A DNA stretch of 63,887 nucleotides, the filler included, from Hausera hauseri (Eukaryota), in the NCBI GenBank assembly GCA_046269625.1. It is 12 parts of 12 records of this genome, joined end to end, with 100 filler letters (N's around TTAATTAATTAA, not from the genome) between each part and the next. Parts side by side here need not be neighbours in the genome. Positions count along the whole stretch, not along the records: positions 8,932 to 15,570 come from JBJURY010079436.1; 11 more parts are not named here. One strand, given 5' to 3'. Below are positions 953 through 55,649 of the stretch, piece by piece. The first letter of the stretch is position 1. Every line of letters begins with the position of its first letter. The position numbers were made by a program, and so were the translations under genes. Below the pieces are notes generated by a model. It was not told where the DNA came from. It was given only the letters and a program-made list of their open reading frames with translations, and did no database searches.

Positions 953-3900
953 CTGGCTGGGGACCGTGCGTGCTCGCCGCCGCTGCATCACATCCCCTTT
1001 CCTTTTTATTTTTTCCAACCATAAGCACATTTATACGTTCAGTGCGTGTATATACTGTCGCTTTTGATATACTTCAATCATTTTCGTCGCTGGATTCCAA
1101 TATCAAATCCTATATCACAAATTCTTGTTTCCGCACACTCAAAAAGGACGTCAACTTCAAGCCGCCTTCTACAACTTATCAATACAGTCACCGAACACTA
1201 AAGACCTATCAGACAAAAGGTCAGACCACTGTCAATTCGTAGACGAAAAGCCGTTAAATCAGAGTTCAATGAACTCAAAACGGCTGTCATCATTCGAAGA
1301 TCAAAATCACCATGCGCTTCACCATTGCATGTAGTAACAAAGAAAGATGACACTTACAGACCACGTGGAGACTATCGGCAGTAAAACAACCTAACAGCCT
1401 TGGATTCTTACCCTTTACCTCTCATAAAGGTATCCTGCATAGGCTAACCAATACTAATAGGTAATTTATAACTGATTTGCATAAAGCTTATTATCAAATT
1501 CCGGTTGCACCTAATGATATTCCAAAAACTGCTGTTATTACTCCATTTGGCCTCTATGAATATATCTTTATGCCGTTTGGTTTACGTAGTGCTTCCCAAA
1601 CTTTTAATCAACACATTGATACCGTCCTCTCAGGCTTTGACGTTGCTCATACATATATTGATGACAAATTAGTTGCCTTCACATTTGTTAAACAACATCA
1701 AGAACACCTCCGTATTATCTTTCACAGACTACATCACGGCAATTTGCAAGTTAATTTCTCCAAGTGTCATGTCTTTTGAAAACGTGTTAGTTTCCTAGGT
1801 TACATTATCAATCCTCAAGGCCACTCTCCACAACCGGATCGACTACAGCAATTGAAAAACATAATGCTACCAACGACTACTACGGATATGAGGAGTGTCT
1901 TAGGCACACTCCATTTCATCCACAAATACGTACCGCACTGTTTTGAGCTTACAGCACCTTTCGCACATCCATCATCCGAAAAAAAGAGGCAGTTGATCCA
2001 CTGGATTCCTGATTTAGCAACCAAATGTGATCACTTATGCGAAGGCCTAAAAACCGTTGAAATACTGGCCTATCCAAAACCCAGTGCATATCTCATACTT
2101 ACCACCGATGCCCCTACCACATTTACTGGTTCAATACTACACCAGATTTCTAACGGCGTCGATGAACCATTAGAATTTTACTCCAGGAAACTTACAGAAC
2201 CCGAAAGCCGTTACTCAACAATTGACCGTGAGTTACTTTCCATAGTTCTGGCAGTAAAACATTTCAAACACCTACTTTACTCTCGTCCATTTGTTATTCA
2301 AACTGACCACAAGTCTTTCCTGTATATCATGTCGTTAAAACAACCATCACCGAGGCAAGAACGATATATATCACACCTGTCTACCTTAGTTTTGTTTTAG
2401 AATACATTTTAGGTATAGACAATTTGGTAGCAGATTTTCTATGAGGTCGGTTGGCCCTATTACAGTTCAGCCAAATTTCTCATTCGAAGTCTTAAAGGCC
2501 AATCAACCGTCTGCTGACTTCCTTAGCTCTCAAATCATTTGAACTCATTGGTGGAACTGCTTTTCGTACGTCGAATTCCGGTAATAAAAAGATCATTCTA
2601 ACGAAAGATCATTCATACGAAAGCCAACCTTGCTTCATACGCATTCCATCATCCAGGTTCGAAAGCAACCTTCCGCCTGCTTCAACATCATATAGTTTTG
2701 CCATCAATGCGCAAAGATGTACGGGGCTGGGTTAAGAAATACGTAGCCTGTCAAAAATACAAAATCAGCAAACACCTTAAACCGCCCCATTACCATTTTC
2801 CCTGTACATCACGTTTTCATACGGTTCATCTTGATGTCGTTGGTCTTTTACCTTCTGACAACGGATATCCATATATTCTTACTATGATGGATCGTGCTTC
2901 TCTCTGTCCTAAAGCCGTTCCTCTTTGTTCAACAATTACTGATTCAGTAGCCGACGCCTTTATAAAAATCTGGATCAATTGTTTTGGTTCCCTACGTTAC
3001 ATAATAACGAATCAAGGCCCGCAATTTGAATCGGAATTCTTCAAATCATTTGCTAAACGCTTGTGGATATCCCATTTTCACACAACACCGTATCATCCTC
3101 AAGCAAATGGCCTCCTTGAAAGGTTCCATCGAACAATGAAAATTTCCTTAAAAATCTTGGCTGACAATCATCGTAATTGGACGTTCATTCTACCATTTGT
3201 TCTACTATCGTGGCTAAACACACCCTCAAACACTGCCGGTTATGCTCCAGCCCAGGCACTCTTTGGGACTCCAATTTGAGCTTTATTTGAACTCTCTGAT
3301 CTCGACGACAACCACACAGGAGAAAACATTCGTGCAGCACAATCTCACTTCATCGAGGTCCGCTCAGACTCCTTCTGCCTCCTCTTCAACAATAACAAAT
3401 TGTACATTCCGAAGGACTTGTACACCGTCAAGTTCGGCTGAAGGATCAATTGCCTTCGGATTTTAGACCTCAATATGTTGGCCCATACAAACTGCTGAAT
3501 TTCTCATCTCATACAGATACCACCTTACGCCAAGATAAACCTTACAACGTCCACATTATTAATCGGAAGCCTGCTTCTTCATTGATGACAATCTGGGTGC
3601 CAATTCTACCTGCAATTCAAACTCAACTCCTACTTCTTCCGATTTTCTAAATGACTTTGCGCCGTTGCAGCAATCACCTTTCTGCCTCTCCCTTTCATCA
3701 TCGCCATCACGTTCTTCACCTCCATTACTTCATCGACTGTTTCATCGCCTTCAATTGCATAGCCTCTTTTGCTTGATTTATTCTCCTCAACACCCTCATC
3801 AGTTTCATCACAAGCAATACCACACATTGAACCAGATAATCTCACAAAACTTCCATCACAAAATGTCACTCAACAGCCAAGGACAAATCAATCAAGTAAG

Positions 3901-8831: not shown

Positions 8832-9014
8832 NNNNNNNNNNNNNNNNNNNNNNNNNNNNNNNNNNNNNNNNNNNNTTAATTAATTAANNNNNNNNNNNNN
8901 NNNNNNNNNNNNNNNNNNNNNNNNNNNNNNNCATTTTCAAAATATCATCAAATCGTTGACTAAAATCTAAATGCAGAGCATCCAAGTGCTCACAATAGGA
9001 TAGAATGTTTTGTA

Positions 9015-9083
9015 TTCACCACCGCCCCCTGGATCCTTGCAGCGCCCACCAGGGGGCGGTAGCGCCCACTTTGGGAATCCCTG
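9015..9083 (-). mobile_element. hAT (Charlie-like) transposon terminus
   Basis: Minus strand begins CAGGGATTCCCAAAGTGGGCGCTACCGCCCCCTGG, with an internal inverted repeat ACCGCCCCCTGG..CCAGGGGGCGGT. Confidence 0.6.
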
Positions 9084-9233
9084 ATTTAGAATTACAAATA
9101 AATAAAACATGAAAACAATGAAAAAATTTTGTTATCAACAACAATCATGTGATGCATTGTAACTTGAATAAAAAGAAACCACTAGAACCAATTCGTTATT
9201 ATATTCAAATTTTATCAAATTAACCTTTCATTA

Positions 9234-11386
9234 ATGAATAGACAGTCAAAGATGGAATTTTTGAAGACGCGCTTCCAGATGTAGAAAGTGATGTTGAAGG
9301 TGGAAATGACATGTGATAATAGTGACAGTGGTGTTTTTTTTTCTATTGTCCGTAGAATGCAAAAACATACTTGTCATTTACCGAGCGATTCAGATTCCAG
9401 TGATAGTGCTAGAGATATTCCAATAACTAATGATACAAGTTTATGGTCTAAACATGACAAAATTCCTATCGTGGAGAATTTTATAGGAAACTCAGGAGTA
9501 AAGCAATTTTCTGCAAATCATTCAAGAATGAATGAAGTTTTGTTTTTTGTAAAGGATTTTTTTGAAATGCTTTCTCGTGAAACCAACTTATATCGACATC
9601 AAAATGAAAGTATGTGAAAAGAACACGTTAGAACTGCAAAATGGGTAGATGTAGGAAAAAAGGAAATCAAAGAAATTTGGCTATTGTTGTCCTTATGGTA
9701 CATGTAAGAAAAAAATCATATTAAAGATTACTGGTCTACTGATCCATTCTTAGAAACGTCGGTGTTTTAAAAACTTACGTGGTGCGTCCATTAAGTACCT
9801 GACCTGACTTAGAAGAAATGACGTTAGAGATCTGAATATTTTTGTGGAATTATATACATATATCTATGTTTTTATTGTTGTCTTTGTTTGACTCTTGCAT
9901 TTCTAGATTACAATATTATGCATGATTTGGAATTTTTGTTAAAGTGATGATTTCGGATGTCGAGTATCGCAGCGTTATCAAGTTATTCGTTCTGTAAATG
10001 AAAACGTGCAATGACATCTTTGCCCTTTTGCAGCCTACATAACTGCATGATGCCCCATCACTGACCACTGTAAAATATTGTATGAGAGAATTCAATGGAA
10101 GGCGCACCCCAGATTTTCATGAAGAGAGTGAAGGTCAACCAAAAGAAATTTCGAATTCTGTTGATGAAAAATTAAAGAAAACCATTCAAGAAGAGCGTTA
10201 AATTGCCACGAGATTGCTTCCATCCCATCTGAATATCTCTAAAGGTGCTGTCAATGTGAGATTCAAGGCGTTTGGCATCGGAAAACTGCTCCAAATTTGT
10301 CCCGCGCTTCGTGACTGGTGAAATGATGCAGAAGCGACTGCAGAGCTGCATGGTGAGACTTTCCTGGCCAATTTAATAACAGGACGAAACCTCACTCTGC
10401 ATTTATTTGCCTGAAACGAAACGTGAATCAGCATAGTGGAAGTTTCCGAGTGAAAAGCCAACCTTGAAGATGCGAAAAGGAACAAATCATGGACGGGACA
10501 ACAAAGGCATCATTATCAATAGCTTTGAGGATAAAGGCATCACAATTAACTCTATCTATTACAGCCAGCTCGTTGCAACTGTCAGAAAGAAAAGAAGGAA
10601 GCAGAAGAACACTCCGCTCTGATTTCTCCATGACAATGCGCCAGTGCACACAGCGGGCATTTCTCAGGAACTGACGCTTGTGGATCATCCACCATACAGT
10701 TCAGATTGGGCACCGAGTGATTTTTCCTTTTCAGACATCTCAAGAAGCATTTGCGATGAACATCATTCACCTCTGAAGAATAATTGAAGACCTCTGTGGA
10801 GAATTTCTTCGCCAAGTGCTACCTGAATTCTTCAGAAATGCTTTTTCTGAGTTGATTACTCGTTGGCAAAGTGTGTGGTGCGAAATGAACTTTATGTAGA
10901 AAAATAATGCCTATATATGTTGTTCAGCTTGTATCGAAAAGGAGCTCTTTCGGATATTGATTTCTGTTTCATGTTGGGTACTTAACGGGCGCACCACTTA
11001 TGAGCCGGAACAGATTTGAGCAAATATTACAATCGCTTAATTTCAATAATAATGCATTGCAAAATAATTTCGAAGATAATTACGAAAATTGTCAGCAAAG
11101 AAAAGCAAAAATACTGCAAACAATAAGAGCAGCGATACTCGATATATTTGCAAATTTTGTTTATTACCTCTCCATCATGGAACTTGTTTTCAAATATATC
11201 ATACCAGAAAAAATACTGGAAGTAGCATTATATATGCCCAGAAAATTTTATTAAAACATTAAATGTACTTTAATAAATGTTACAGTCTGTTATGAATATA
11301 TAATCACTTTTTTGTTGAATAATTACAAAAATATGCGAGAATTCAGGCTATATCCTTTTCCCTGCATACCGTCTTCAATGTGTTAA
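9234..11386 (+). mobile_element. Internally deleted piggyBac transposon, interrupted by a mariner
   Basis: ETNLY, KWVDV..EIK, DYWSTDPFLET..KL|MSRNRFEQIL motifs. C-terminal Cys-rich TRYICKFCLLPLHHGTCFQIYHT. Element end followed by TTAA at 11383-11386. The catalytic DDD core is missing. Confidence 0.85.
9778..10998 (+). mobile_element. Decayed mariner element, about 1.22 kb, with TIRs and TA duplication
   Basis: TIRs CGTGGTGCGTCCATTAAGTACC and GGTACTTAACGGGCGCACCACT, with TA at 9776-9777 and 10999-11000. Transposase remnants include FLHDNAPVH and HPPYSSDWAPSDFFLF. Confidence 0.92.
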
Positions 11387-12162
11387 AGGTAGAGGACTGT
11401 TCAATCTTCTTCTTTTAATTAGGTGTTGATTAAATACTTCCGTATTTTTCTTTACACAGTATTGAACAATTTAATCGTTGCTGCTCGGGGAAGAGTGGGT
11501 ATGATTCTGATCTTACATAGGTGTGAGTAGGTAATGTGTTGCAAGAGAAGTAAAAACTGTTTAATTATTTCTTTACTTACTTACTGGTTAGTATCCTACT
11601 TTTTACTTGGGATTTACTGAGGACTCCGTCAGGTCGCTTTTACCTGGTCGGAAACTTTCCAATGTTATTTAACTTTATTTACTTAAACTTGTTAGACAGA
11701 TAATAGACAAAAATGTAAACGAAATTATAACTCTAGTTTACGTACGAAATTACGATAATATTAGCAAACAAAAACACAATAAAATAAATGATCTTACGTG
11801 AAGTCATCATCAATGGTAAAAACTACTGTGTTCATGCACAAAGATCATACTTTATATAGTGTTCTGATTGTAATTACATTAAATAAATAAAGTAACATCC
11901 TGCGGAAAATTCCATTAAATCAGGTTCAGAAAATCATGTCACATATAAAAATTCACATGGTCATTATCAACTAATACAAATTATACATAGCAATCATGTA
12001 ATAATCAGTAATGGCACATAATGTACATAATGAAGTCCATAAATAATCATGCGTCTCTCAGATGATACATTAATTTTATCAAAGGTCAAGAACTGACCAC
12101 TACATGTCACTAAATGTTGCACAATATTCGACGGGGGTTCTGAGAAAATTGTCCCAAATTGA

Positions 12163-13596
12163 TCATTGGTCCAATATGATGGGCCTGTGGACATATTTGC
12201 CTGTGGATCTGGATTTGTACCGTATGGAATCTGGCTCGTATACTTCATCATCTAATACCAGTGTTTCATCCACCTGAATTTTACGTTTTCTTCCACTTTG
12301 TGATGCTGTAGGTGCTTTTCGCAGCGTATCAGAGGCCGCACTTTGGGTGATATATTCGTCGGACCATTTTATTTGTTTATATATTGATTGATAGCACTGC
12401 GCTAAGGCAGTGCTTCGGAGAGAGAAGCCCTTTGTATCATAAAATTTGCGGGCCAACTCTTTGTAGGTATTGGACGATAACTGATACCGACGGATAACAT
12501 CCTCGTGATATAAAATATCACGTACTCCCGCTATCCGTCGGATTGGACATTTGAAATGGTTCACAACCATTTCCACCACGTCGGCTCCAATAATTACTTT
12601 ATCCGTTATAACTTCTGTCACTTTCCTGTAAAAATCCACGGGATCAAGTTGATTGTTAATACTGGATTCTGTGAGGCCAGTTATATGCGTATCAAAATTA
12701 TTGATACGCTGTCTTGGTGTAATGATTCCATATAGTAGGGTGTCTCCGTTTATTGTTAGAATTGAAGCTTCAATAGGTTGAAGCTGATTCCACTGGTCAT
12801 AGGCCAAATTTACGGCTGCTATGACCATGTCTTTGTCTGAGACTTTTTCCAATCTTCTATAGGGGACTGTTCTGTATTTAACATAGTCAGGTTCTGGGAG
12901 GTTGAAGCATATTCCCTCTGGTAGGCCGGGATAAAATTTTTCTCGCTTGATTACTTCCATTGCCAGAATTACACGGTTTGTGCATGAACGGATTTTAAAA
13001 GTGTTATTCTGGAGAAAAGTATAATCGAACGCTAACGCATGTTCCGGGTCCACGTTAATTAAATCACCTTTAATAGCTGTCTTCTTATCTGTGGTCTTTA
13101 TCTGAATCTGACCTACCACGCCATACAAATTCATAGAATGAAATCGATCAGGCAGGATTATAATGTCATCGAGAAGAAATGACATAGCTTTAGTTAGTTG
13201 CATTATAGCAAATGATCGGTTGGCCATACTATACCCCTTGAGGTTGTTGGGGATTTGTTGGGTTTGAGGATAATTTAAACTGGTCACATTATTGTTGTGA
13301 GATACGAAATATTGATTTGAAGGGTTAGCGTTAATCATGTGACTTTTGACATTGCTATACCAATGTTTCGAACGGTTGATGGTCTGGATCTGATGGAACG
13401 TTGTAGCTGAGACTGCAAAAACAAGAGTCAATACATAATTTATCATGATACTTAGACACAATACAACGGTTATCAAACACACCAAATGGGTAATCGTTGT
13501 GGTTTGACTGTTACTATTTCTATTTAGTAAGATAAGTCGATGTTCGGCTATCTTTCTACTTAGGGTTGCGTATATTGCAATCCCTGTTACTAATTG
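12163..13596 (-). CDS. Retroelement extra ORF, in-frame after a single UGA: hydrophobic segment plus ISG20/REX4-like DEDDh-fold domain with degenerate catalytic residues
   Basis: The frame is open from 13596 to 12163. ASILTINGDTLLYGIITPRQRINNFDTHITGLT..KVIIGAD aligns by eye with the REX/ISG20 pattern SxVNxxGxxLYDxxxxPxxxIxDYRTxxSGxT..KxxVGHD. Confidence 0.7.
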   Translation of the reverse strand, partial: QLVTGIAIYATLSRKIAEHRLILLNRNSNSQTTTITHLVCLITVVLCLSIMINYVLTLVFAVSATTFHQIQTINRSKHWYSNVKSHMINANPSNQYFVSHNNNVTSLNYPQTQQIPNNLKGYSMANRSFAIMQLTKAMSFLLDDIIILPDRFHSMNLYGVVGQIQIKTTDKKTAIKGDLINVDPEHALAFDYTFLQNNTFKIRSCTNRVILAMEVIKREKFYPGLPEGICFNLPEPDYVKYRTVPYRRLEKVSDKDMVIAAVNLAYDQWNQLQPIEASILTINGDTLLYGIITPRQRINNFDTHITGLTESSINNQLDPVDFYRKVTEVITDKVIIGADVVEMVVNHFKCPIRRIAGVRDILYHEDVIRRYQLSSNTYKELARKFYDTKGFSLRSTALAQCYQSIYKQIKWSDEYITQSAASDTLRKAPTASQSGRKRKIQVDETLVLDDEVYEPDSIRYKSRSTGKYVHRPIILDQ

Positions 13597-13599
13597 TCA
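13591..13599 (-). promoter_or_regulatory. Candidate programmed stop-codon readthrough signal UGA-CAA-UUA
   Basis: It is the only stop in about 1135 in-frame codons, and its 3' context matches the CARYYA consensus. Confidence 0.7.
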
Positions 13600-15570
13600 G
13601 CTGGGGTTATCCGTATCTAACGGATTCGTTAGATTTCGCATATCTATTCTCACCCAGCTCCTTTTTCGCTTGTGTCGCCTGTATACAATTTTACTCACTA
13701 ATATCAATATTATTATGAAGACTACAGGGGTTATTAAACTTATGCATATTATTTCTAATTGGGAATGACTATATACTGCTCGTGTGGGTTTGGGTGTTAT
13801 CTTGTGGCTAATTGTGTTAGTTTTATGCGATACGTCTGTCTCATACATTACTCTCGTGATTGCTGTCATTATTTTAGTAGAAATTACCTTATTTTTATCA
13901 TCTAGCAATTGTAAAATTATTGTATATCGAGTATTAGGGTCTAATGCTGCGCATGGTACTACTAAATCATCTGGAGTTATGGTTCCCTTGGCTACCACTG
14001 TATCTTGTTTCTTACAACTAAACTTAATTTTTGCAAAATCTAAATCCGGTCTGACCGAAATGATTAATGCAGTTGGAGCTGCTACTACTGTGACATTTCC
14101 CCAGATTGATCGCTTTGTACAATAATAAGATGTGTAAGGTTTCACTAAAATGGTCATATCCGTTTTATTATTCAAGGACTGGGCAGGTGGTACCATAATC
14201 TTGTTCGGTATTTCATCATACTCCTTCTGGTTCTTGTATCGTATGAACATCGTCGGTCCTTTTCTCTGTATTTTATTTTTCAATTTTCCATGTTCTTTCC
14301 GTGACAGAGAATATTTTACCTCGTATATTTTTCCTCTTATTACGTTACAACAAACTTGTTGTTGTTCATCCGTTAATTCACATTTCACTAGTCTTTGTTT
14401 ACTTCCCAGTTCTTTTATGGATATTGTTATCCATCTAATGTATTCTAATTCTATCGTACTACTAATTTCTAGGCAACTTCGTCCACTTTTAAATCCCATC
14501 GGTCTTATTATTAGTTGAGCGAGTATTATTGCATCTAATAGGGTTTCATTCATTTCATGTCTATTAGGAACTCGTATATACCTGTGAAATTTGGTATATA
14601 GACTATAATAATAGTCTCCTTTCTTCTTTATGAGCGTAAGATGTACTTCATGTGTTCCTGAAGTGTCTATTAGACATAACGTTTCATTTGTCGACGAGCG
14701 TAGCATACAGTCATTATACCGCTCATTCGAGTTCTTTTCATAACCATAGATTGGGGTTGTTTGTATCCTTATAATATACTCGCCAGGCATTCGTCTGGTA
14801 GTATACCAGCGAATGCATTTTTGGCCTTTCATGGAGTACGTTATTTGGTATTTTAGGCTTTTTAACCATAGGTCTTCATTTATCGCCGTGGCATGTCGTA
14901 TCTTTGCTTGTTCAATTTCCTGTTCCGTCATCTGTCCTGCTATTTGGGGAATCATAAAGATAGTCGTTAATAATAGGCTCTTTATTAGCCAATGCAATCC
15001 GGGGATTGAACTTTCTTCTTTTACTTTTTCGGTAATACTTAATACAAGTTCCTTTTCGCCTTTTCTTAACTCGCTTCTTCGGGCTGCTGGCTTACATCTG
15101 TTAACATGGACCTTCACCGATGTATTGTTTTTCCTTAAAGATATGTTTGGCATATTTACCTTTTCTACTTCATATGGACCCTTATATGGTCTATCTAACT
15201 TAGATGTCTTACCTTTCTTAAGTGCCGGAGAATATAACATCACTTGATCGCCTATTTTGATTTTTGGTTGCTTAGTCTTTTTATCGTAATATTTCTTATA
15301 TTTGGATTTATAATCCTCTTGGTTCCCGCAAATCGTTTTGTAGGCCAATTGTAAACGTTCTTGCATTAATTGTTTGTAGTCTTCCATTTCCATCAAATGT
15401 GAGACAGGTCTCACATTAAAGTCTAAATCAATGGGTAATCTTGCATCCCGCAAATACATTAGATAAAAGGGGGTTTCTTTAGTGGCTTCATGCACTGACG
15501 TTCGATTTACGAATACACACGCATTGACATACTCATCCCAATCGTCTTGCCTAGTATTGACCACCGTTTG
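13597..15570 (-). CDS. Gypsy integrase C-terminus fused to a type I membrane protein (signal peptide, Cys/FN3-like ectodomain, TM); 5' truncated by contig end
   Basis: Integrase end DWDEYV..VHEATKETPFYLMYLRDARLPID and GDQV..SKLDRPYKGPYEV..VHVNRCKP. Then hydrophobic WLIKSLLLTTIFMIPQIAG, FN3-like ALDPNTRYTIILQ, TM LEIICISLITPVVFIIILILVSKIVY and basic RRHKRKR. Confidence 0.88.
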   Translation of the reverse strand, partial: QTVVNTRQDDWDEYVNACVFVNRTSVHEATKETPFYLMYLRDARLPIDLDFNVRPVSHLMEMEDYKQLMQERLQLAYKTICGNQEDYKSKYKKYYDKKTKQPKIKIGDQVMLYSPALKKGKTSKLDRPYKGPYEVEKVNMPNISLRKNNTSVKVHVNRCKPAARRSELRKGEKELVLSITEKVKEESSIPGLHWLIKSLLLTTIFMIPQIAGQMTEQEIEQAKIRHATAINEDLWLKSLKYQITYSMKGQKCIRWYTTRRMPGEYIIRIQTTPIYGYEKNSNERYNDCMLRSSTNETLCLIDTSGTHEVHLTLIKKKGDYYYSLYTKFHRYIRVPNRHEMNETLLDAIILAQLIIRPMGFKSGRSCLEISSTIELEYIRWITISIKELGSKQRLVKCELTDEQQQVCCNVIRGKIYEVKYSLSRKEHGKLKNKIQRKGPTMFIRYKNQKEYDEIPNKIMVPPAQSLNNKTDMTILVKPYTSYYCTKRSIWGNVTVVAAPTALIISVRPDLDFAKIKFSCKKQDTVVAKGTITPDDLVVPCAALDPNTRYTIILQLLDDKNKVISTKIMTAITRVMYETDVSHKTNTISHKITPKPTRAVYSHSQLEIICISLITPVVFIIILILVSKIVYRRHKRKRSWVRIDMRNLTNPLDTDNPS

Positions 15571-15670: not shown

Positions 15671-15855
15671 AGAAGTATTCACTCTGCAGTTCATTTAGAA
15701 ACTGGACTCAGTCTATTTTCTCACTGCATATTTCATTTGTAAGCCGTTTAATTTCAGCTTCTAAATCTATTTTGTAATACTAAATATATAGATAATTTCG
15801 GAGAACAGATTTGAAATCATACCATTTGTCGTACTATTCCTTGAAACAACGCAAT
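15671..15855 (-). pseudogene. 5' end of a small-intron gene, decayed paralogue of 55328-55582
   Basis: (ATT)ALFQGIVRQM-[GT..AG]-YYKIDLEAEIKRLTNEICSEKID*VQFLNELQSEYF. Start codon mutated and one in-frame stop. Confidence 0.6.
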
Positions 15856-16038
15856 GCTTTTTTCAAGGCCCATATTTATAGCCAACCACCAAAATTAAAA
15901 CAAAAATTTTTTGACACAAACCGACCAATCCGATTACACCAATTTGGGGTGAGAATAGTAAAACCCAGTCTGCCGCAGAAATCTCACAACCAAAATTTTA
16001 ACAAATTTTACGCGCCAAATTCAAATTTTAAACTGCTG

Positions 16039-20259: not shown

Positions 20260-20322
20260 ATAAAATTTAGTTTAGTTGTTAATGTTAATATTTAAGAATG
20301 AATTTATTTAAGAATATTTCAG

Positions 20323-20719
20323 CTATTCACGAAACGGTAATAGTTAAAATGATAAGAGCCAGAACATCGGAACAACTCAAGTGTCAAGGATCATCTCAAT
20401 CCAAAATGGTACAATATTTATTACATTACCAGAATAGACAGTTCGGACCAGCGTCGTTTATCAAAAAACGGATAAGCTACTCCAAGGCTATAGTATTAGA
20501 CAACTCCATGAGAGACACGCAAAATCGAAAAATATCGTTTCTAAAATATCCAAATTCACCCGTTTCAGGAGAACTAGCGCAATTATATGCCAAAGCCGGA
20601 TTATTCCGAACTCCGACAGGACAGATCAAATGTTTATATTGCCAAGGAGAATTTCAATATGAACAGACAAAGGATCGACCAAAAGAGAAACATAAGAAAC
20701 CGTACCATACTTGTCCTTA
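20323..20719 (+). CDS. BIR-domain (IAP-like) protein, truncated by contig end
   Basis: RKISFLKYP..LYAKAGLF..IKCLYC-x16-H-x6-CP gives the exact BIR Cx2Cx16Hx6C spacing. Preceded by a TTTCAG acceptor. Confidence 0.85.
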
Positions 20720-20881
20720 NNNNNNNNNNNNNNNNNNNNNNNNNNNNNNNNNNNNNNNNNNNNTTAATTAATTAANNNNNNNNNNNNNNNNNNNNNNNNN
20801 NNNNNNNNNNNNNNNNNNNTAATAATAGTCAGTTGTTTTGCTTGTGTTATAAACAAAAAATGATTTTGTAGCAGATAAATA

Positions 20882-22521: not shown

Positions 22522-25500
22522 TTATTTTAGCCGCCGATGTCCATACGCCCAACTCTTATTTCCCCCAACCCACTTTCACTTATCATCGTTACATGACAAA
22601 ACGACTTTTGCACTAGTTATTGTGTACAGCTGGTGCTCAATTTATCGGATGATCGTTTGAGACACAACAGCCACTGAGTGTCCTCCTCCTTCTGCTGCTG
22701 CTGCTTCTTCATATATACAGCGATAATCACCGTGGTTGATTTCCGTCTGTCTAAGTCCAACTCCTTTTCCCCGAATTTTCGGTCCACAATTCGTCAGAAG
22801 ACTGTAGCACTTTGGGCGTAGGAATATCCATTCCCGATGGAGAACCCTGCCTTCACTTTCATCCTTGAAGCAGCCGATTTTTTGTTTTTCTGTTGTACAA
22901 CGGATGATCCGGTGGATAGTTTGACGTGTTTAATAATCCATCTGACTGCATTTCCTGCAGTAGCTGTTCGCGATTGACTTTTTTCAGCCGCAGGAAAAAA
23001 CTGTCTGTGTCACCGGCAATTATACTAATGTAACAGCCGTTAAACATTTTCCAGTAATGTACCAAATCGCGATACTGTTGCTCATACATACGCAACTTTC
23101 TCAGGTCTAATACCACTTGTCCGATATAACTTGGCTGGTCCAGAACGACTGCTTCTCTGTTTAACAGCACCGCAACCAATCCATCGGCAATGTGTATTGA
23201 CCGCCTGAACTGTGCTTTGCTCGTGCACGTGACCAACCGCTTTTCGCTGTTGCATAGGTGTACACTGAGACGCTTTTTCAGATTCTTCACGGATTTCCAT
23301 AGAGGAAATTGTTTTTCAGCTTGCAGTAGTCCTTTTCGAACTTTGTACAGGCTGCGGCTCGTTTTCTCGAATTTCCATCTATGTACGCCTTGAATATGGG
23401 AGCCTGAGCAAATCGGACTGCATGATGCAGCTGTGTGACGCGAACACTGAGCTGCATGTAGAACTGTAGCAAACGCCAATGGACCACGTACTTCAGCTTC
23501 AGTTCATGCGTCATGGGCAGTTTTTTCACTTTGAGCCTGGCGGACATTGGTTAAATGGTGCGATCGGTAAATCGTCCAAAACGTCATGCAGCTCGTCTGG
23601 TACCACGAGTTCGACCTCCATCACGTATCCGACTGAGCCTGCCATGTCTTTTTGTGGTAGCTTGACCATCATGTCGTACAGATCTTGTCTGTCGACTACA
23701 CATTCGAATGAACCGTACGGCAAGAGTTGCGAAAGCTCCAGCCGTACATGTTATTAATACGGACCTGATGTTTGTTGACAAATACCATGCCACCGCGAAT
23801 ACCAATATCAAACAGCCGGTATATTTACGGGTCTTGCATCAGGTCAGTGTCTCGATCCAGTGATATTAGAGCTGACGCCCAACTCATTCCCAGTATGGAA
23901 TAAAAAATAAGTGGCTCCAGCCTATCTTCAGCCAAAGCTTTCGCTCAAAACGCTTTAAACACATCGGCTAATAAGTACACGTCCAGTTTAAGATACTGGA
24001 GCATGTAATCCAACATCTTTCTACAGCCGAGTTCTGCCAACATTTCTGTGCTTTTCGGTATTCATCTTTGCGATACCTGTCCATAGCGGTGTAATTCCTC
24101 TGCTGTCCGGAGTCGCTAATACGATGTTGCAAAATAATATGGAAATATGCCTCTGCTGCGTGAAATATGTGCGGGAAACTGAGTCAATGTTAGCGGCACA
24201 TCCGACAAGGCATTCACCACCTTTGCCAATGATTCATTAAGAAAGTGCAATGAATCAAGGAAGCGTACCTGGAACCGGTTTATACGAGCAGACAGTGACA
24301 GGTATTTCTCCATCGTAGTCTCCATCGTTTATTGTCCATTTCAAAATACGGTGACAATCATAACCCCTGAAGTTATAAAATACCACCGGTATGAATGGCC
24401 GCACACGCCTTGCCAAATTGTATGAATTACATGCTGCTCTTAGATATCGACCAGTAAAATGATCGTGATCCAGTACGAGTCGTTCCAGTGCGTCGAACGG
24501 TAATATTTTATTGCACAGGTATCATTCATCTGTGACTGAAAACATCCGGCGTTCATCTTCATCTGTTCACATCAAGGACTTGTTGCTATTTCTACTGTAC
24601 CATGGCGCGATTTCAGTTTCCACTGTGGTTTGCTACTTCTGCAAGAAATTGCGTACCCAATTCCATCCGTGGAAAACATAATATTGAGGTTGACCTGCGG
24701 CTTTTATTAAGACAACTAATATACCGACAGCGATCGGAACATGTTTTTGGTCATATATGTTGTGCCATGGTATGATATTTTCAATATCGGCATATACTAC
24801 ATATACCGGACTGTCGGTTTTTGACAAATCAGTGAACCTGAGTTCCTGTTTGACGGGCATAACATACATTAGTATTCCTGAAGAATTTCGTCTGCACAGA
24901 ATCACGTGTTTAGTCCATGTTGTTTCCAATTTGAATCCATGAAGACGTACAGGAAACCATTTACACTGTATCCATTTTTGGAGGAAATGGTCATGTTCTA
25001 TGTTTAGTAATCTGTCCAGATTTGTCACTACAACGTAATGGTACTTTTTTTTTGTTCCAGTAGCAACAAATTTACTGAGCGGCCATTTGGGTTCCGACTA
25101 CGATAGATGATATCAATATGAGGATTTTTGTAAATTTCTTCATCGGCTGGTATTTCCACGATTGCGTTGTACCGGAACACGTTGATTGTCAGTGTCGGAT
25201 TACGCAGTTCAAAAGCCAGAATGGATTTCAGTTTCACCGGCATCCAGATTTCATCGAAATCAAATTCGGAAAAATATTTCTTATACTGTTTTGGACGAGA
25301 TGCACTATGTCTGTCCACTTGGTCATATTTCAATACCGCCAGAATACTGTAAAGAAAATCGTATTTATCATTAGTATTTTTTACATTTACTACCACCAGA
25401 GACTGCTTCAGATCTGCAGATCTCGGTATGAATTATGTCACTTGACTTTATTATGATAAAGCCGAGGGTGACAATTCGTATAATTCGCCATCCACTATCC

Positions 25501-26353: not shown

Positions 26354-29300
26354 GCTACCATATGTAGAGTTGTTTCTTCACGTGGCTTCTGTGTTGTTAT
26401 ATCTGTGGCAAGTATATTTTCTATGTCTTCGCCTTTTTGTAATCCTGGATAAATACTTTCTGCTAAAGTGCATAAGGTAATTGTCTGATTTTGCTTTCCT
26501 GATGCATTAATTTGTATTATGTACTCTGTCTGACGTTTTAATGCGTTATATTCTACTTGTCGTGTAATTTGTATAAGTTTTACTTTTTATCTGTCATATA
26601 AGGTTCGACAGTTTATTTTTATATAGTAGTTTAATTCTTTGTCAACAATGAACACTATTCTCTACTGATGGACCGAAAATCTTATAGGTATATCTTTAAT
26701 TTCTGTTTTAGGTATATTGTTTGTTGTAGTAATTCGGGCGGTCGACATTTTAGTCGGGGTTTCCATAGAAATTTTCCAAATTCTATTTTCTGGATAGTAG
26801 GGTCGTAATTGTATACTTGATTGATTAGGCCGTATCGCGTATAAGTCAAATTTTACTTTGATTTCTTGGTTCACGGGTATTTTACAACACAGATGTTGCA
26901 CATCTGCATGAATGAAACAATATTTTATTTTCGGAGTTGGTCCTATTGCTGCCTTAAATACGATACAGATTTCCCGATTGACGGTTAGCTCCGTCCGAGT
27001 ATTTACTTGAATACATTGTCTTTCCTTATTCACGGAGATTCTATGGATATTTTAGTTTAGTAGTCTTATGGCTGGATTAGTAGATCGTAACATTTTGTTA
27101 ACTTTTATTCCATGCTGCCTATTCCCAGAGGGATGACTAGTTTGAATTGTGGTTTTGTTTCATTAATTTTAGATAAATTCGGTAGGTACAGAGGATAGGT
27201 CAGATTAAAAGTATGTCCGAAATCTATGTCGCAACATTGCGTACGTTCTCCGGGCTCAAAATCACAATTCTTTGCTTCTTTTGTTATTACATCGACTACG
27301 ACAATTTGGATCCTTCCAGAATTTTGGTGTGGTTTCCGTGTTTTAAATCCAACGCATGTGGAGTTAGGTGAATAATAATGGATCCTTATTGCTTGTAATA
27401 ATCTTGTATCTTCTTGTCTTTAATTTGCTTCGACTGTTGATTTCTTTCCGTTTTAATAACCTCCAATCTTGCTCCACTTTTCCAAATTCTGTAACTGTTG
27501 TACCACTCTTTAGCTTGTGTTCTCGGGATATAGGAGGCAATTAACGATAATGCTAAAACTATTTCAACGTACGATATTGGTCTATTGATTATGAAGGATA
27601 TTTTCCTTTCCCCTTTTCCTTGATTCGAGCTGGATCGCAAATTAGAGCGTTTTTCAGGTCTTATTTCTGTTTTAACAATTCTCTGTATGGATACTGTTTC
27701 TTCTTCACCATTTGTATTAATGTGTACAGTAGTTGGTGTGGTTTGAATAACTTCATAAGGTCCTCGTCCTGTACGAGTAAGTTTTAATGATGTACCTTTC
27801 TTTGCAACTAGATAGCGCACGTAGACCCAGTTCCCTTTTTCTAAATCGTGGGGTTTGGCCTTCTTATAGTATTGTTTCCTAAACTGTTTTTGATACTCAA
27901 GAGTGAGCGTTTTTGCTATATCCCAACATTTTGGTAATCGTATTTGCAAGTCTTTTGCGAAATTTGGTTCTAAATCTTCTGAATTTGCGTGATAAGGAGT
28001 CATCCCTAAGTCCGTAGGTAATATTGCTTCGTGTCCATACATCATAAAGAGTGACGTAAATCAGGTGGCCGGGTGTAAAGTAGTATTGATAGCAAATTGC
28101 GTTCCTTCTAAAAATTTGTCCCAGTACTTTTGATCCTTTGCTAGTACAGTCGATAAGATTCGTGTAACTGTTGCATTATACGTTTGACCATCCCACTACA
28201 CTGAGGGTGATATGCAGTAGTAGTTAGTCGTTTGATTTCGAAAATTTTAGAAATTTTGTCAAATAATTCTCTTGTAAAAATTCTTCCTCTATCGGTTAGT
28301 ATTTGATCGGATGGTCCGTATCTGCAGATGATTTTCCTTACTACTGCGTCGGCTAGAGTTTCCGCCTTTTGATCGATTAGTGCGATCAATTCCACAAAGT
28401 GTGTTAAACAATCTACGCACGTCAGAATATATTTGTTATTTTTATGTGTTGTATGTAAAGGTCCTACTATATTCATAGACATAGCTTGTATAGGCCTGTC
28501 TGGTACATCGATTGGTTTTAATTCTGCTATATAGTTTTCACTTTCTTTTGCTTTGTTGCACAGACTTCATAGGCGTCTACCCAGTTCTTTACGTCGATAT
28601 AAACGCTTGGCCAGTAATACTTATTTAATATTCTTTCTAATGTTTTCTTCCATGCCATATGTCCAGCTAAATGTGAATCGTGTTCGGCCATTAACACTTC
28701 CGTCCGTAATCCTTTTGGAATAACTACCAGTTTCCATCCCTTTCGTTCGTAATATAAAATATTATCCAGATTTGATGTATAATATTTGTGTACGTGTCTC
28801 TGTAAGTGTTTCTTTAGTTGACGTCCTCTTGGTATCTCATCTTGCTCGTCAAATTTGACTATTTGTTGGATAACTTTATCTTTAGCTTGTTCTGCAGAAA
28901 TTTCGATTGCTTTATTTAGTGTTAGGGTCTGCTGTTGCTCGACTAATTTTTCGAGCTGGGCTTTCTTCATGGTCGTAATTGTGCTTGTCTTTGTTTTAAG
29001 ACTTGATAAAGCGTCTGCGTCAATGTGTTTGTTTCCAGGTTTATATTGGAATTCAATGTTGTATCGGGAGATTTCCTCAATTCACCGATTTAATCTACAT
29101 GTTGGGTTATTTGCCCGTCCTTTAACGTTGTAACCGCCTTGGGATTGGTAACTATAATAATTTTCTGCCCATAAACGTAGACATTGAAATGCCTTAGGGC
29201 TTCTTTTACGGCTAGAGTCTCAAGTTCAGATACTGAATAATTTTTCCCAGCTTTTTTATGCGATCGTCCTCCATATGCAATTGGATGCTCCAATTCTTCG

Positions 29301-31967
29301 CCTTCTCGTTTCTGAGCGAATTCGTAACCAATTCCTTCTTTACTTGAATCTGTTTTAATTATAAATTGTAAATTAAAATCGGGTTATCTTAACACTGGTT
29401 CACTTGTTAAAAATTTCTTCATTTCGTCGAATGCTTTCTGTTCAACATCGGTCCATCTCCATTTGATACCTTTTTTAATAGCCGATATAGTGGCGCGTTT
29501 ATTCTCGAATTGTCTGGCACATATTTCGCATAATATCCACATAAGCCTAACCAATGTCTCAACTCTTTCTGGTTCTGGGGTTCCATACAATCCAATATTT
29601 TATTTATTAAAGATTTATCTGGTTTTAACCCTCCTTCAAAGACTATATGTCCTAGATAAGATGCAGCATTTTGTGCCCATTTAGATTTTTTTGGGTTCAA
29701 TTTCAATCCTGCCTGTTCCAACCGCATAAGTGTGTTTTGATATCATTTTGGTGTTCGTCTTCTCTTTTTGATGCTATCATTACATCGTTTAAATATGCGA
29801 ACGCGTGATCTAGTCCCATTAACATCTTATTCATCATTCTGGTGAAAATAGCTGGGCCGGTTACACCGAACGGCATGACGTTAGATTCGTAAACTCCGTC
29901 GTGTGTCTTGAACGCTGTTTTATAGTGGTCATCTTCTTCAATTTCCACTTGCCAGTATCCGGATTGTAAATCTAGTGTGGTAAACCATTNNNNNNNNNNG
30001 CTTCTTTCACTGATGGTAACGGAAATGAGCCTTTCATCATGAGCGTATTTAGGGCTCTGTAATCTATACAGAATTGGTGTTTAGTGTACCTTTTTTCTTA
30101 ACCATGAGTATTGGTGAGTACCAAGATCGATAGCTTGGTCGTATTCTGTCAGCTTTTAACATGCGTTCTACCTCTTTGGTTGTTTCAGGCCTTAATGAAT
30201 GCGGTGGTGGATACCATTTAGGCATCTTTTGCTCTTCCAAGTCAATTTCATCATTGGAGCCAGGTTTCTTTTTTAATGGAATCGTTAATCTTAAGGTTTT
30301 TGCTATGCCTATATCTTCTTCATTTTGTGCAATAATCGACTTATATCTAAATGGTAATTCGTAAAACTGACAATACGCTTCTGGTGAAAATTTTATTTCG
30401 ACGTGAGGTGGAAATTCAGCATATTTATATGGTTTTTCTTCGATTATTATTGTTGACACCTTATAAGTATGACCCAATGTAGTATTGGCGTACGACGTTA
30501 CGGGAGTTGATGCATTATTTACTAACCTGATTGGTACTCTTCCTGTCGTTAATCTTGTCAAAATATTACTAAGTATAATATTTGGATTAACGTCTTCTTG
30601 TGGCTCAAAATATACTGGTTGGTCGTCCTCTTCGCGGATTTGAGCATAAATTAGCATTTTGGTTCTAGGCGGTATATTTTCGTCGACGGGAATCCATACT
30701 TCTCCCTGTTTGCTTTCTTTCATTGTCTTGATACCTTTTACTGGTCCGAGTTCTATTAGTTTTCCGGTTTGTAAGTTTATTGCGATATTGTTAATTGCTT
30801 TAGTATATCGCAACCCAACACTACGTCATCGGTTAGTTGGTCCATTATGGCAAACTCGTGTCGGAGGTTTTGGCCCATTAATTGAACTAGGGGGCTCCAC
30901 TTAAATTTCGGTTTGGATTCTTGTCCGAAGACTCCGATGCTACCTGGATTTGATGACGATGCAGGCTGCAGTTGTTTCCGTAATATAGGCGGTATTGATT
31001 CTAATTTTATAAATGAGTCTCTGATCCTGTGTCGATTAAAGTATAGACTTCCCAATCTTCAATGGTAATCTTTGTGAAGGGTCCCTCTTCCATAACTGTT
31101 CCATAACAACTTGATATGTCTTTTGGTCTTTTAATTGAAGAATTTTGTGTCCGTTTATTGTTATTTCTGGTGATAAGATGATATTCTCGGTCAACTGTTT
31201 CAGTTCTTCGTTAGGGTATAAGTCGTTGATTGCTACACCAATTGCATTGTTTCTAATTAACGGTTCTTGTACTATAGAATTTTTGAACGATTTCACTCCT
31301 TGTGTTCCCCAGACTGTTGATCTGGTCTCTATATTGCGAGCTATTCTCGGTGAGTACAATACCCTATGGTCATCTTCCGCTCGTCTTTGACTAGTGATTT
31401 GCATTTTCTTTAATACTCCGTATTGTTTTGTTCCTTCATAAGGATCTTCACAGTTAAAAGGTTTCTGACAGAATGCCGATCTATATGACACCATAGATGT
31501 TTTGTCGCAATCCTCGTATATTGGAGTTGTTGGCGGTATGATGGGCAAAGGTGCCTTAATTACTGAATACATTTTGTGTCTATTTGGTCCGAGGATTACT
31601 TCTTCCTTAAGCTCATCATCATCTGAATTATTTCTTCGCGTCATATGTTTCTTAACCTTGCGTTTCAGCCGAAATATGGCTCTTGCTCGTCGTTTGTAAT
31701 TATAGTAGCCGACATGACGTTCAACGTCATATTTCCATCCATTTTCCTCATATGCTTTAAGCATTTTGCCGAATGGGATGATGATTGCGGTTAAGATTTT
31801 GCAGGAAAATCCTGTTAATGTAAATATTTCATACCCATTTTTAACTGCTTGGATTACCGCTTTTACTAGTTGTACTAAGAAATAGATTGATAAAATTTAG
31901 ATGCGGCTTGCCCAAAAATTAAAAATCTTCCCCATATCTTGTAGAGTATTTCGGTAGTTACCCAGAT
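26354..31967 (-). mobile_element. Decayed Ty3/Gypsy element with integrase-fused ectodomain
   Basis: Protease LIDTGS/VVLGCDIL, dUTPase-like insert, RT (LDLQSGYWQV, MPFG, YLND), RNase H (YSVSELETLAV), integrase (HDSHLAGHM, TDRG, TTAYHPQ), then signal-like IVLALSLIASYIPRTQA and Cys/FN3-like modules. Confidence 0.92.
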
Positions 31968-35900: not shown

Positions 35901-36960
35901 AGGCATGAGCACCCGCCATTTCTGCCGGAGAGCAAACCTTCGCCCCACGGAAAGCATAAAATGCTGCTCTGTCACCTCGAAAACAGAGAGAGGTATGTAG
36001 TCCACTAAATAAAAATCTCCAACAGACTACCCAAAATGGACTCAGAGTCATCAGGATTTATGGGGCCCTGCAGTTAAGCCAGTCCAAATGGCTGACTCCA
36101 TACATAGACTCAATACCCAGTTGAGGGCCAATGCCAAGAACAAGTTTAAAAAGGACCAATTCAAACTTTACAACAACTCGGTCTTTGGCAAAACTATGGA
36201 GAATATCCGGAACCAGATTAACATTGAGGTGGTATGTGACTGAAAGTGGGCAAGGAAACTCATCGCTAAGCCCAACTTCTACAGCAGCACAATCTACACA
36301 GAGAACCTGGTGCGTTTCCATGTGCTTAAGACATCACTTGAGTTCAACAAGTTTATATGTGGATATGTCCATATTGGATTTATCCAAGACCTTGATGTAT
36401 GACTTTCACTACAACATCATGGTTACTGCATTCAAGGAGCTCCAGCTAATGTACATGGATACGAACAATTTCATATACCAGATCCGCACAAATGATGTCT
36501 TTGAAAAGTATGCAAAATTGGCGCAAAATATGGATACCTCAGACTATCCGAAAGATCATCTAAATTATTTAATTACCAACAAGAAGGTTTTCGGGAAGTT
36601 TAAAGACTAGGTAAATGAGAAGATCATCACCCGTTTCGTGGCGTTGAGATGGAAAATGTACGCCATCGATGTAAGTGGAAGGGTAAAGAAGCGGGACAAG
36701 GGAGTTCAAAAGGCCACATTAGCTAAAGACATTGGCACTGGAGATTTTGAGAGAGTGTGGCGGAGCAAAGTCATATAGTTAATGAGATGAAAAGGATCCA
36801 GTCCCGGGAATATCAGATTGCCACAGTTGCGCTGCGGAAGAAAAATGTCGATTGGTTTGATGACAAAAGGCACATTCTTGAAGACGGAATTCAGGCACTA
36901 TTTCACGTGGCATGTGACATTATTGTAACTATATATATATTGTTATTCTTTGTTCAATAA
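32959..36960 (+). pseudogene. Protein-primed family-B DNA polymerase, copy 1, with tandem N-terminal Cys/His repeats and an AQPALA linker
   Basis: KKACVNVHNND, VVYCNFEA, ACNNCNL, VVFHNLSGYDSHFI, RFIDSFRF, KGVFPYDY, YLDANNLY, NNSVFGKTMEN, YMDTNNF, DTSDYPKDH, GKFKD, FDDKR. Confidence 0.93.
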
Positions 36961-37146
36961 ATGTTGTACAGAAATATCGTGTTGTCTTTCTTGATCAAGT
37001 AATGTGGGATATAGGATAAGGCCAAGTAAAACTAAGTAACTACTATATAGATTAAGACGAAGTAAAACTTAGATAAATAAAATCAATAAATTTGAATATT
37101 CAATACAGTGCGACATTTACTTGCATTCATCTGTCATTATTTCAAA

Positions 37147-37417
37147 ATGTTGAAAACTTGTCCGATTTGTTGGGGGCAGATGCATAACAATGCGTTTGGC
37201 TACATGGGGCACACATACTTTCTGCATAGTCCGTCTGCAGAAATGGCTAAGCAGTAAAATGTCTTGTCCGTTATGCAGAACAAAGTGTGAGTATGTGGTA
37301 GTCCAGAATGCTGAAGACCAGTGCTTGTATGTAACATGGGTAGGTTGTGTGATAAAAATATTACATGAATTCTTACCAGACAGCGACAGTGACAGTGATG
37401 ATACTATTATTATGTGA
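37147..37417 (+). pseudogene. RING-finger gene between the two pPolB genes (frameshifted)
   Basis: MLKTCPICWG / HTFCIVRLQKWL..SCPLCR plus an acidic DSDSDSDD tail. Confidence 0.75.
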
Positions 37418-37710
37418 TTGTAGTGTTCAATACATGTTGTTTTCAATATAGTTTAAGTTTTATAAAACCAACTAATTTCATAACACATTTATTTAGTAAC
37501 AATATAACTTTGACATAACGATAAACAATTTTATATGCACAATGTGAGCCATGTTTACGATAAATACATGTAATGTTCTTTGGTATAGTTGCCTATTTGG
37601 TACATTCATATTCACATATTCTCAATTCTGGAAATATGCTATTAAATATCTTCTTCTTTCTTAAATCAGCATGATCTTTGACATGGAACATACAGAAATG
37701 ATTAACAGAA

Positions 37711-50762: not shown

Positions 50763-51061
50763 TTTCTCTCTCTGTCCCTTTCTCTGTCTCTGAATCTGTC
50801 TCAGTCTCTCTGTCTCTCTGTCTCTTTGTCTCTGTCTCTCTGTCTCTTTATCTGTCTCTATCTCTGTCTCTGTCTCTGTCTCTGTCTCCGTCTCTCTCTC
50901 GGTCTGTGTCTGTGTCTCTCTTTGTGTCTGTGTCTCTGTCGCTCTGTCTCTCTGTATCTGTCTCCGTCGGCCAGTCTGTCTTATTTGTCTGTCTCTCCCT
51001 ATCTCACTATCTTTCTCCCTGCCTCATTCTCTCTTCATCTCCCTCTCTCTCGCTCGCTCTG

Positions 51062-51092
<31 letters not shown>

Positions 51093-52314: not shown

Positions 52315-52354
<40 letters not shown>

Positions 52355-52519: not shown

Positions 52520-52550
<31 letters not shown>

Positions 52551-55582: not shown

Positions 55583-55649
55583 GCTATTTACACACCAATA
55601 TTTTTACCCAACCACCAAAATTAAAACAAAAATTTTTGGCACAAACCGA

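What the first reader, a model, noticed from the sequence alone, without database searches (positions are those of the whole stretch)
13680..15000. Env-position protein looks like an FN3/cytokine-receptor-type ectodomain, not a fusogen
Seen: there are two related Cys-containing beta-rich modules (GQKCIRW..DCMLR..TLCLIDTSGTHEVHLTL and GRSCLEI..KCELT..VCCNVIRGKIYEVKYSL). An FN3-like module (ALDPNTRYTIILQ), a Thr-rich stalk and a TM helix follow. N-glycosylation sequons include NET x2, NKT and NVT. No obvious furin site plus fusion peptide is visible. Inference: a captured cell-surface receptor or adhesion fold, possibly for particle attachment, cell-to-cell transfer or decoy function, released from Pol by signal peptidase at IAG|Q.
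Basis: partly seen in the sequence, partly recalled or inferred. Interest (0 to 1): 0.75.

Follow-up and report, generated by a model that had tools for sequence, protein, structure and literature searches.

The report
Giant retroelement's second, FN3-fold surface protein
Behind its integrase, this animal retrotransposon encodes in the same reading frame a membrane protein predicted to be built of fibronectin-type-III domains, likely an accessory attachment protein, because full-length relatives carry their virus-like fusion protein elsewhere, between gag and pol.

Summary
Observation confirmed. The integrase ORF (13597-15570, minus strand, cut by a contig end) runs on in frame into a signal-like stretch, three beta modules, a short stalk, a TM helix and a 28-residue tail.

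Modules 2-3 fold as FN3 (pLDDT 62; top hits fibronectin, DCC, ROBO; no fusogen among hits shown). Module 1 is FN3 only by likeness to module 2. Cytokine-receptor hallmarks (WSxWS, Box1) are absent.

The layout marks one Ty3/gypsy clade, and all 3 near-full-length relatives are single ~3,200-residue ORFs with a PF24664 fusion glycoprotein between gag and pol. A decayed sister element in this window keeps that gene's end. So this is likely a second surface protein, not an env replacement; the target's own env is cut off and inferred.

Its stop is TGA-CAA-TTA, a known readthrough context, followed in frame by a catalytically dead DEDDh domain. The layout resembles planarian Burro and GAG-ENV-POL errantiviruses; I found no FN3 cargo described for them. 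Function is untested: attachment partner of the fusogen is likeliest, host-modulating decoy next. No donor gene was found.

The parts
14992..15570 (-). Ty3/gypsy integrase C-terminal half with GPY motif and linker; ORF cut at the contig end (N spacer from 15571)
   Evidence: 40-44% identity to pol tails of P0003-P0006; 37-46% to L001-L012
14935..14991 (-). Internal signal-peptide-like segment ending IAG; predicted signal-peptidase site before Q at 14934
   Evidence: hydropathy; equivalent segments in relatives; cleavage inferred
14563..14859 (-). Module 1, likely FN3 (3 Cys, NET sequon)
   Evidence: related to module 2, p 0.003; not folded confidently; not matched by the family profile (205 of 500 shuffles score as high)
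14227..14523 (-). Module 2, predicted FN3 fold (4 Cys)
   Evidence: VIA Z 8.1, rmsd 2.6 over 83 residues to ROBO1 FN3; pLDDT 44-77; weak sandwich hits (Z up to 5.0) also from the alignment-free model; family profile not significant (74 of 500 shuffles)
13843..14109 (-). Module 3, predicted FN3 fold with one Cys pair
   Evidence: VIA Z 9.5, rmsd 2.3 over 80 residues to fibronectin; pLDDT 66-90; family profile 15.7 bits, 0 of 500 shuffles as high
13753..13842 (-). Short S/T/P-containing stalk
   Evidence: sequence
13684..13752 (-). Transmembrane helix
   Evidence: 19-residue hydropathy 3.27
13600..13683 (-). Basic 28-residue cytoplasmic tail, no Box1 motif
13576..13599 (-). Stop codon TGA followed by CAA TTA (CARYYA readthrough context) and the start of a 3' hairpin
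   Evidence: 150-nt fold z -2.2, 3 of 200 shuffles as stable; motif described in PMC7026636 (passage)
12163..13596 (-). In-frame downstream ORF (477 aa): hydrophobic segment (about 13405-13485), then a DEDDh/RNase T-like domain (about 12367-12831) lacking the catalytic acids and His
   Evidence: ESM Atlas RNase_T clusters 0.91-0.92; tblastn from 6 of 7 relatives' exonuclease ORFs and from L001's second downstream ORF, E 8e-14 to 4e-6; alignment
26354..31967 (-). Decayed sister element on another contig: end of a PF24664 fusion glycoprotein, pol pieces, integrase, signal-like segment and pieces of the same three modules; many stops and frameshifts
   Evidence: E 3e-4 to module 2; E 0.003; PF24664, E 0.0022

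Best explanation
This is an accessory type I membrane glycoprotein, predicted to hold three FN3 domains, at the end of the long ORF of a giant Ty3/gypsy element whose fusogen is inferred to lie between gag and pol; it is likely cut from Pol by signal peptidase and likely serves as the attachment or entry partner of that fusogen. Shown: reading frame, layout, family-wide conservation of the layout, and the upstream fusion glycoprotein in relatives. Predicted: FN3 fold of modules 2-3; module 1 by similarity to module 2. Inferred: ER entry at the internal signal, cleavage at IAG|Q, glycosylation, and that the target element has its own env. After cleavage integrase would keep the hydrophobic signal unless a protease trims it. 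A minority of ribosomes would read through the leaky UGA into the dead DEDDh domain. Identity of the protein about 0.85; attachment role about 0.45.
For: Fold: a 12-module family profile hits fibronectin first (E 1.8e-5, summed over repeats), and most of the 32 PDB sequences listed contain FN3. Foldseek top hits are FN3 pairs (E 7e-7); VIA Z 9.5 and 8.1; ESM Atlas neighbours are FN3 proteins (0.86-0.90). Family: 8 of the 12 best loci continue in frame for 561-1316 residues, each with a signal-like segment and a C-terminal TM. Among 122 proteins, 9 of the 15 top-scoring ones have a hydrophobic segment after integrase at the cut-off used, against 0 of the other 107. All 22 cargo-bearing rows fall in one 29-row branch (95/85 support, 57 rows). 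Fusogen elsewhere: PF24664 at E 1e-84 to 4e-94 between gag and protease in 3 of 3 loci long enough (L005, L008, L010), and its end in the window's sister element. Constraint: 21 of the 40 listed variant sites (of 139) among related copies are synonymous, against 11.5 expected (p 0.002), none creating a stop. The ectodomain is exchangeable (1-3 FN3 modules, another beta repeat, or a small Cys-rich domain) on a kept signal-TM frame, as expected for a host-facing protein.
Against: The target contig ends inside integrase, so its own env is not seen. The model is of moderate quality (pTM 0.41, linker below 50), rests on an 8-row alignment chosen from five trial alignments for its strand register, and omits module 1. 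Per-domain E-values to fibronectin are not significant alone (1-6), and Z 8-9.5 is only slightly above the tool's background of 7-8. With the wider 27-module profile an unrelated window segment outscored the target. The 40 sites were the tool's best-supported rows, not a random sample. In the tree the target sits at the base of the clade beside a long-branch row without cargo. Nothing here bears directly on function: no RGD motif, no ligand, no expression data.
Confidence: 0.5

Rival explanations
1. The FN3 protein acts on the producing cell rather than in entry: a decoy or blocker of a host receptor or immune ligand, or a superinfection-exclusion factor, like viral receptor mimics.
For: Tail too short to signal, no Box1; fast divergence and swappable ectodomains; the clade carries other host-directed cargo (ankyrin, ubiquitin-like, DEDDh); Atlas neighbours include cytokine receptors.
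Against: No close likeness to any one host receptor; made from the same ORF as the structural and fusion proteins in relatives.
Confidence: 0.3
2. What matters is the internal signal and TM, which tether Pol/integrase to the membrane where Gag and Env assemble; the luminal domain is largely a folding spacer.
For: Signal plus TM is kept while the luminal part changes type. The single-ORF design has no frameshift, so Pol needs another way to be co-packaged (inference). Extra protease-like domains flank the membrane segments in several relatives.
Against: A spacer need not be 1-3 disulfide-bearing, glycosylated FN3 domains under purifying selection; a second FN3-TM protein sits before the protease in L008 and P0004.
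Confidence: 0.13
3. It is a divergent fusogen, or a recently captured host cytokine receptor that replaced env in this element.
For: It sits where env usually sits; a minimal RYIR precedes a mildly hydrophobic patch; the target's upstream half is unseen.
Against: FN3 fold; no fusogen among the 50 BFVD hits or the PDB hits shown; no WSxWS; no homologue at E up to 0.001 among 1.84 billion representatives; relatives and the sister element have a separate fusogen.
Confidence: 0.05

Closest known systems
Planarian Burro/GYPSM1 giant gypsy elements (PMC6431247, section 7 read)
   Same: Single very long ORF with env in frame between gag and pol, env similar to mononegavirus fusion glycoproteins, and ubiquitin-like and ankyrin cargo. 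Relatives here show weak UBX/ubiquitin hits and ankyrin hits.
   Different: That section names no FN3 or post-integrase membrane protein and no DEDDh ORF. Burro ORFs are about 4,900-5,100 aa against 3,200-3,300 aa seen here (two of three are open at the contig start). No Burro sequence was available for comparison.
GAG-ENV-POL errantiviruses with HSV/gB-type env in Nematoda, Bryozoa and Platyhelminthes (PMC13524379; abstract, first parts of sections 5-6, term searches and rows of supplement 1 seen)
   Same: Gene order and a chuvirus/gB-like class III env in Ty3/gypsy elements.
   Different: The main text has 0 occurrences of fibronectin, immunoglobulin, exonuclease, accessory or Burro. It reports chromodomains, not membrane proteins, after integrase. 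Its GitHub data were not seen.
Bdelloid rotifer Juno/Vesta LTR elements with non-env ORF3 (PMC5408684, parts 1-2 of 5 read)
   Same: Extra cargo behind pol, including 3'-5' exonucleases and small TM proteins once mistaken for env.
   Different: There the cargo is a separate ORF3 with an intact DEDDy enzyme. Here it is fused in frame, has an FN3 fold, and the DEDDh domain is catalytically dead in the target.
Cellular FN3 surface proteins (fibronectin, DCC/neogenin, ROBO, CD45) and class I cytokine receptors
   Same: Seven-stranded FN3 sandwich, type I topology, sequons.
   Different: 7-22% identity in structural alignments, no WSxWS, no signalling tail; no particular donor identifiable.

Membership tests
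FN3 fold | Seven-stranded beta sandwich matching solved FN3 domains | tested here: met
   Modules 2 and 3: (Z 8.1 and 9.5); predicted model of moderate confidence
FN3 fold | Same fold for module 1 | tested here: inconclusive
   Similar to module 2 (p 0.003); single-sequence model pLDDT about 30 there
FN3 fold | Pfam fn3 sequence match | tested here: not met
   No fn3 hit for the target or relatives; only the family profile reaches fibronectin
Class I cytokine receptor | WSxWS motif (recalled) | tested here: not met
Class I cytokine receptor | Proline-rich Box1 in the cytoplasmic tail (recalled) | tested here: not met
   28-residue tail without it
Class I cytokine receptor | Two conserved disulfides with C-x-W in the first domain (recalled) | tested here: inconclusive
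   Module 1 has 3 Cys and C-x-x-W, module 2 has 4 Cys and no such Trp; pairing not determined
Viral fusion protein (class I or III) | Sequence or fold match to a fusogen | tested here: inconclusive
   None listed in Pfam, PDB or BFVD; the positive FN3 match argues against
Viral fusion protein (class I) | R-X-K/R-R site followed by a fusion peptide | tested here: not met
   No such site in the ectodomain; only a minimal RYIR
Ty3/gypsy LTR retrotransposon | PR-RT-RH-IN order with GPY-type integrase tail | tested here: met
   Integrase tail in the target; full order in relatives
Ty3/gypsy LTR retrotransposon | LTRs, PBS and PPT | tested here: inconclusive
   Contig holds only the 3' part; no repeat found in the window
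GAG-ENV-POL gB-type errantivirus | Class III env between gag and pol | tested here: inconclusive
   Met in L005, L008, L010 and the sister element; the target itself is truncated
Burro/GYPSM1 | Phylogenetic grouping with Burro RT/IN | not testable with these tools
   No Burro sequence obtainable
Active DEDDh exonuclease (downstream ORF) | D-x-E, D, H, D catalytic residues | tested here: not met
   Lost in the target, L001 ORF2, L005 and L006, mostly lost in L003; kept in L001 ORF3, L004, L008, L010

The most novel reading that the evidence does not exclude
A clade of giant invertebrate retroelements encodes a multi-component envelope: a gB-like class III fusogen between gag and pol plus one or two separate FN3 attachment glycoproteins cut from the same polyprotein by signal peptidase, and a readthrough-controlled pseudo-exonuclease. 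That is a division of labour between binding and fusion like that of herpes- and paramyxoviruses, with a swappable receptor-binding module, in an LTR retroelement.
Probability: 0.4. Interest if true: 0.85.

Novelty: new variant of a known kind. Interest (0 to 1): 0.68.

Why it matters
Retroviruses and errantiviruses are usually described with one envelope gene that both binds and fuses. If this clade has a second, modular surface protein, it offers an answer to how gB-type fusogens in retroelements find target cells, since herpesvirus gB needs partners (recalled). It also shows a retroelement threading its polyprotein across the ER membrane several times. In practice it warns that a signal-plus-TM ORF behind integrase is not necessarily env, and gives a profile-detectable marker for the clade.

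Tried and rejected
Searches with the target ectodomain alone found nothing: word-seeded search, 0 of 3377 candidates; phmmer over 1.84 billion representatives, 0; PDB sequences, 0; Pfam, only sub-threshold noise.

The single-sequence AlphaFold model was poor (pLDDT 36); its fold search gave only Z up to 5.0.

Viral contigs held no relatives. No host genome is held, so the donor-gene search could not be done. No RNA holder was listed, which says nothing about expression.

A complex prediction of the L008 fusogen ectodomain with the L008 FN3 pair, both without alignments, returned no answer (score 0.00).

HHalign of modules 1 and 2 against the family alignment gave probabilities near 1%. Alignments A4-A6 and A8 were not used for folding because strands were out of register or scattered. 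No LTR was found.

Earlier scan notes: none.

Ten literature searches listed no paper that, by title or abstract, describes FN3 cargo in an LTR element; the five-term search returned 0 papers. Grohme 2018 was not held, and Sacco 2022, Repbase entries and the GitHub data of PMC13524379 were not seen. Any of these could already annotate the feature.

Full report
Setting. The window is a chain of short contigs joined by N spacers, about 36% GC and rich in transposon debris, apparently from an animal; no genome is held. The finding lies on contig 8932-15570. A minus-strand frame is open from the contig end at 15570 to a stop at 13597 (657 residues). Its first 165 residues are the C-terminal half of a Ty3/gypsy integrase (40-44% identity to pol tails). 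The contig is cut inside integrase, so gag, any env and most of pol are not visible.

Observation. Modules 1 and 2 are related (p 0.003); neither aligns significantly with module 3 pairwise. There is no R-X-K/R-R site in the ectodomain, only a minimal RYIR before a mildly hydrophobic patch.

Finding relatives. The ectodomain alone found nothing, so I searched with the integrase tail and read what follows it. Of the 12 best metagenomic loci (of 74), 8 continue in frame for 561-1316 residues, each through a signal-like segment and a luminal region to a TM helix. Two (L009, L011) carry similar material in a shifted frame, and two stop within 50 residues. Among 122 proteins from two searches, 9 of the 15 top scorers have a hydrophobic segment after integrase at the cut-off used; most of the other six are short or carry an extra protease there. 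None of the remaining 107 has one. In a 57-row integrase tree all 22 cargo-bearing rows fall in one 29-row branch (95/85). The target sits at its base with weak local support beside a long-branch row. A decayed sister element in this window (26354-31967) has pieces of all three modules.

Fold. A profile from 13 relatives' modules, without the target, picked target module 3 as the best of 1516 window segments (E 3e-4) and the sister element second. With 27 modules it scored 15.7 bits (0 of 500 shuffles as high), although one unrelated window segment then ranked higher, and modules 1 and 2 were not significant. A 12-module profile hits fibronectin first in the PDB (E 1.8e-5 summed over repeats; single domains not significant), and most of the 32 sequences listed contain FN3. 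AlphaFold on modules 2-3 with an 8-row alignment gave two beta sandwiches (mean pLDDT 62, pTM 0.41). Foldseek's top PDB hits are FN3 pairs of fibronectin, DCC, neogenin and NCAM. VIA-align gives Z 9.5 (rmsd 2.3, 80 residues) for module 3 to fibronectin and Z 8.1 (rmsd 2.6, 83 residues) for module 2 to ROBO1 FN3, against a stated background of 7-8. Named viral hits are mostly phage FN3 tail proteins, and no fusogen is among the 50 shown. The alignment-free model gave only weak sandwich hits for module 2 (Z up to 5.0). The ESM Atlas independently listed FN3 proteins at 0.86-0.90, with low recognition. WSxWS and Box1 are absent. So the fold is FN3, but the protein is not specifically a cytokine receptor.

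The fusogen is elsewhere. The three loci that reach far upstream (L005, L008, L010) are single ORFs of 3184-3284 residues in which a PF24664 'Monjiviricetes fusion' glycoprotein (E 1e-84 to 4e-94) precedes protease, RT, RNase H, integrase and then the signal-ectodomain-TM unit; L005 shows Gag with zinc knuckles at its start. The sister element keeps the C-terminal end of that glycoprotein upstream of its pol (tblastn E 1.5e-4; Pfam E 0.0022). L008 and P0004 have a second signal-FN3-TM protein before the protease. The target's own env is therefore inferred, not seen.

Downstream. The stop after the tail is TGA CAA TTA. CARYYA, UGA-C and UGA-CGG are described readthrough contexts (PMC7026636, one passage seen). 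Four of ten elements have a long in-frame continuation and all four end UGA-C; the six without end in UAA or UGA-A. A modest hairpin follows (z -2.2). The continuation is a DEDDh/RNase T-like protein whose catalytic residues are lost in the target and kept in four of the eight relatives' ORFs aligned. Readthrough is inferred; initiation at an internal Met on a separate RNA is not excluded.

Selection. Many related contigs cover the region in two public runs (one may be the window's own source). Of the 40 listed variant sites (of 139), 21 are synonymous against 11.5 expected, and none makes a stop, consistent with purifying selection. The listed sites are the best supported, not a random sample.

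Mechanism. Most likely the polyprotein is threaded into the ER at internal signals. Signal peptidase releases the fusogen and the FN3 protein, and the viral protease frees the enzymes; these steps are inferred from layout and general knowledge of viral polyproteins. The FN3 protein would be displayed with the class III fusogen and serve for attachment (about 0.45-0.5). Acting as a decoy or blocker on the host cell is the main rival (0.3), then a membrane-tether role (0.13). Nothing here tests function.

Comparison. In-frame env between gag and pol is described for planarian Burro/GYPSM1 (PMC6431247, section 7 read). GAG-ENV-POL gB-type errantiviruses are described in nematodes, bryozoans and flatworms (PMC13524379; parts of sections 5-6, term searches and supplement rows seen). 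Exonuclease and small TM cargo behind pol is described in bdelloid elements (PMC5408684, parts 1-2 of 5 read). In what I read none mentions an FN3 membrane protein fused behind integrase, and ten searches listed no such paper. Grohme 2018, Sacco 2022, Repbase and the authors' GitHub data were not seen. Membership in Burro could not be tested, and the host phylum is unknown.

Verdict. New variant of a known kind, interest 0.68.

Noticed in passing
window 13597-13599; L005:9684-9692, L006:3305-3313, L009:3047-3055: Of 10 elements checked, the 4 whose ORF continues in frame after the TM tail (477, 607, 709 and 87 residues) all end in UGA followed by CAA or CGG and then a hydrophobic stretch. The other 6 end in UAA (5) or UGA-A (1) and have 1-17 in-frame residues. 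CARYYA follows 88 of 39,901 stop triplets overall.
   Followed up: partly
L008:4392-4676; P0004 residues 45-231: A second signal-FN3-TM protein sits between the fusogen and the protease, homologous to the post-integrase modules.
   Followed up: partly
L005, L006, L009, L011; L004 and P0018: Other ectodomains on the same signal-TM frame: a different beta-rich repeat not matched by the FN3 profile, and a small Cys-rich domain. Not folded.
   Followed up: no
L001, L004, L008, L010, P0003, P0011: Extra aspartic-protease-like domains after integrase or between env and the main protease; ankyrin repeats after integrase in L001 and P0005; weak ubiquitin/UBX-like hits before env in L005 and L010.
   Followed up: no
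L001:7268-8743 and 9043-10374: Two tandem DEDDh-family ORFs, the first catalytically dead and closest to the target's, the second intact.
   Followed up: partly
window, spacers at 4170, 8832, 15571, 20720, 26254, 31968, 41721, 46133, 50663, 55228, 59535: The window is a concatenation of short contigs joined by N44-TTAATTAATTAA-N44 spacers, so neighbours across spacers are not genomic neighbours.
   Followed up: yes
window 20289-20771 (+): ORF with a BIR (inhibitor of apoptosis) domain, E 1.4e-7; BIR is known cargo of Burro elements (PMC6431247), but no link was tested.
   Followed up: no
window 22859-25097, 32959-38966: Fragments that look like Polinton-type DNA polymerase B genes (recalled likeness; no informative Pfam hit).
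   Followed up: no
window 1124-3291 (+) and 41823-45734 (-): Two further decayed Ty3/gypsy elements of another lineage.
   Followed up: no
window about 9230-10980: Decayed DNA-transposon-like sequence (piggyBac- and mariner-like by eye, recalled, untested) next to the element's 3' side.
   Followed up: no
P0015: A clade member is labelled by its source as a Turicibacter MAG protein, probably a mis-binned animal contig.
   Followed up: no
window 50763-55228; 15673-15965 and 55400-55690: A long C/T-rich low-complexity stretch, and a dispersed repeat of about 290 bases at about 85% identity.
   Followed up: no
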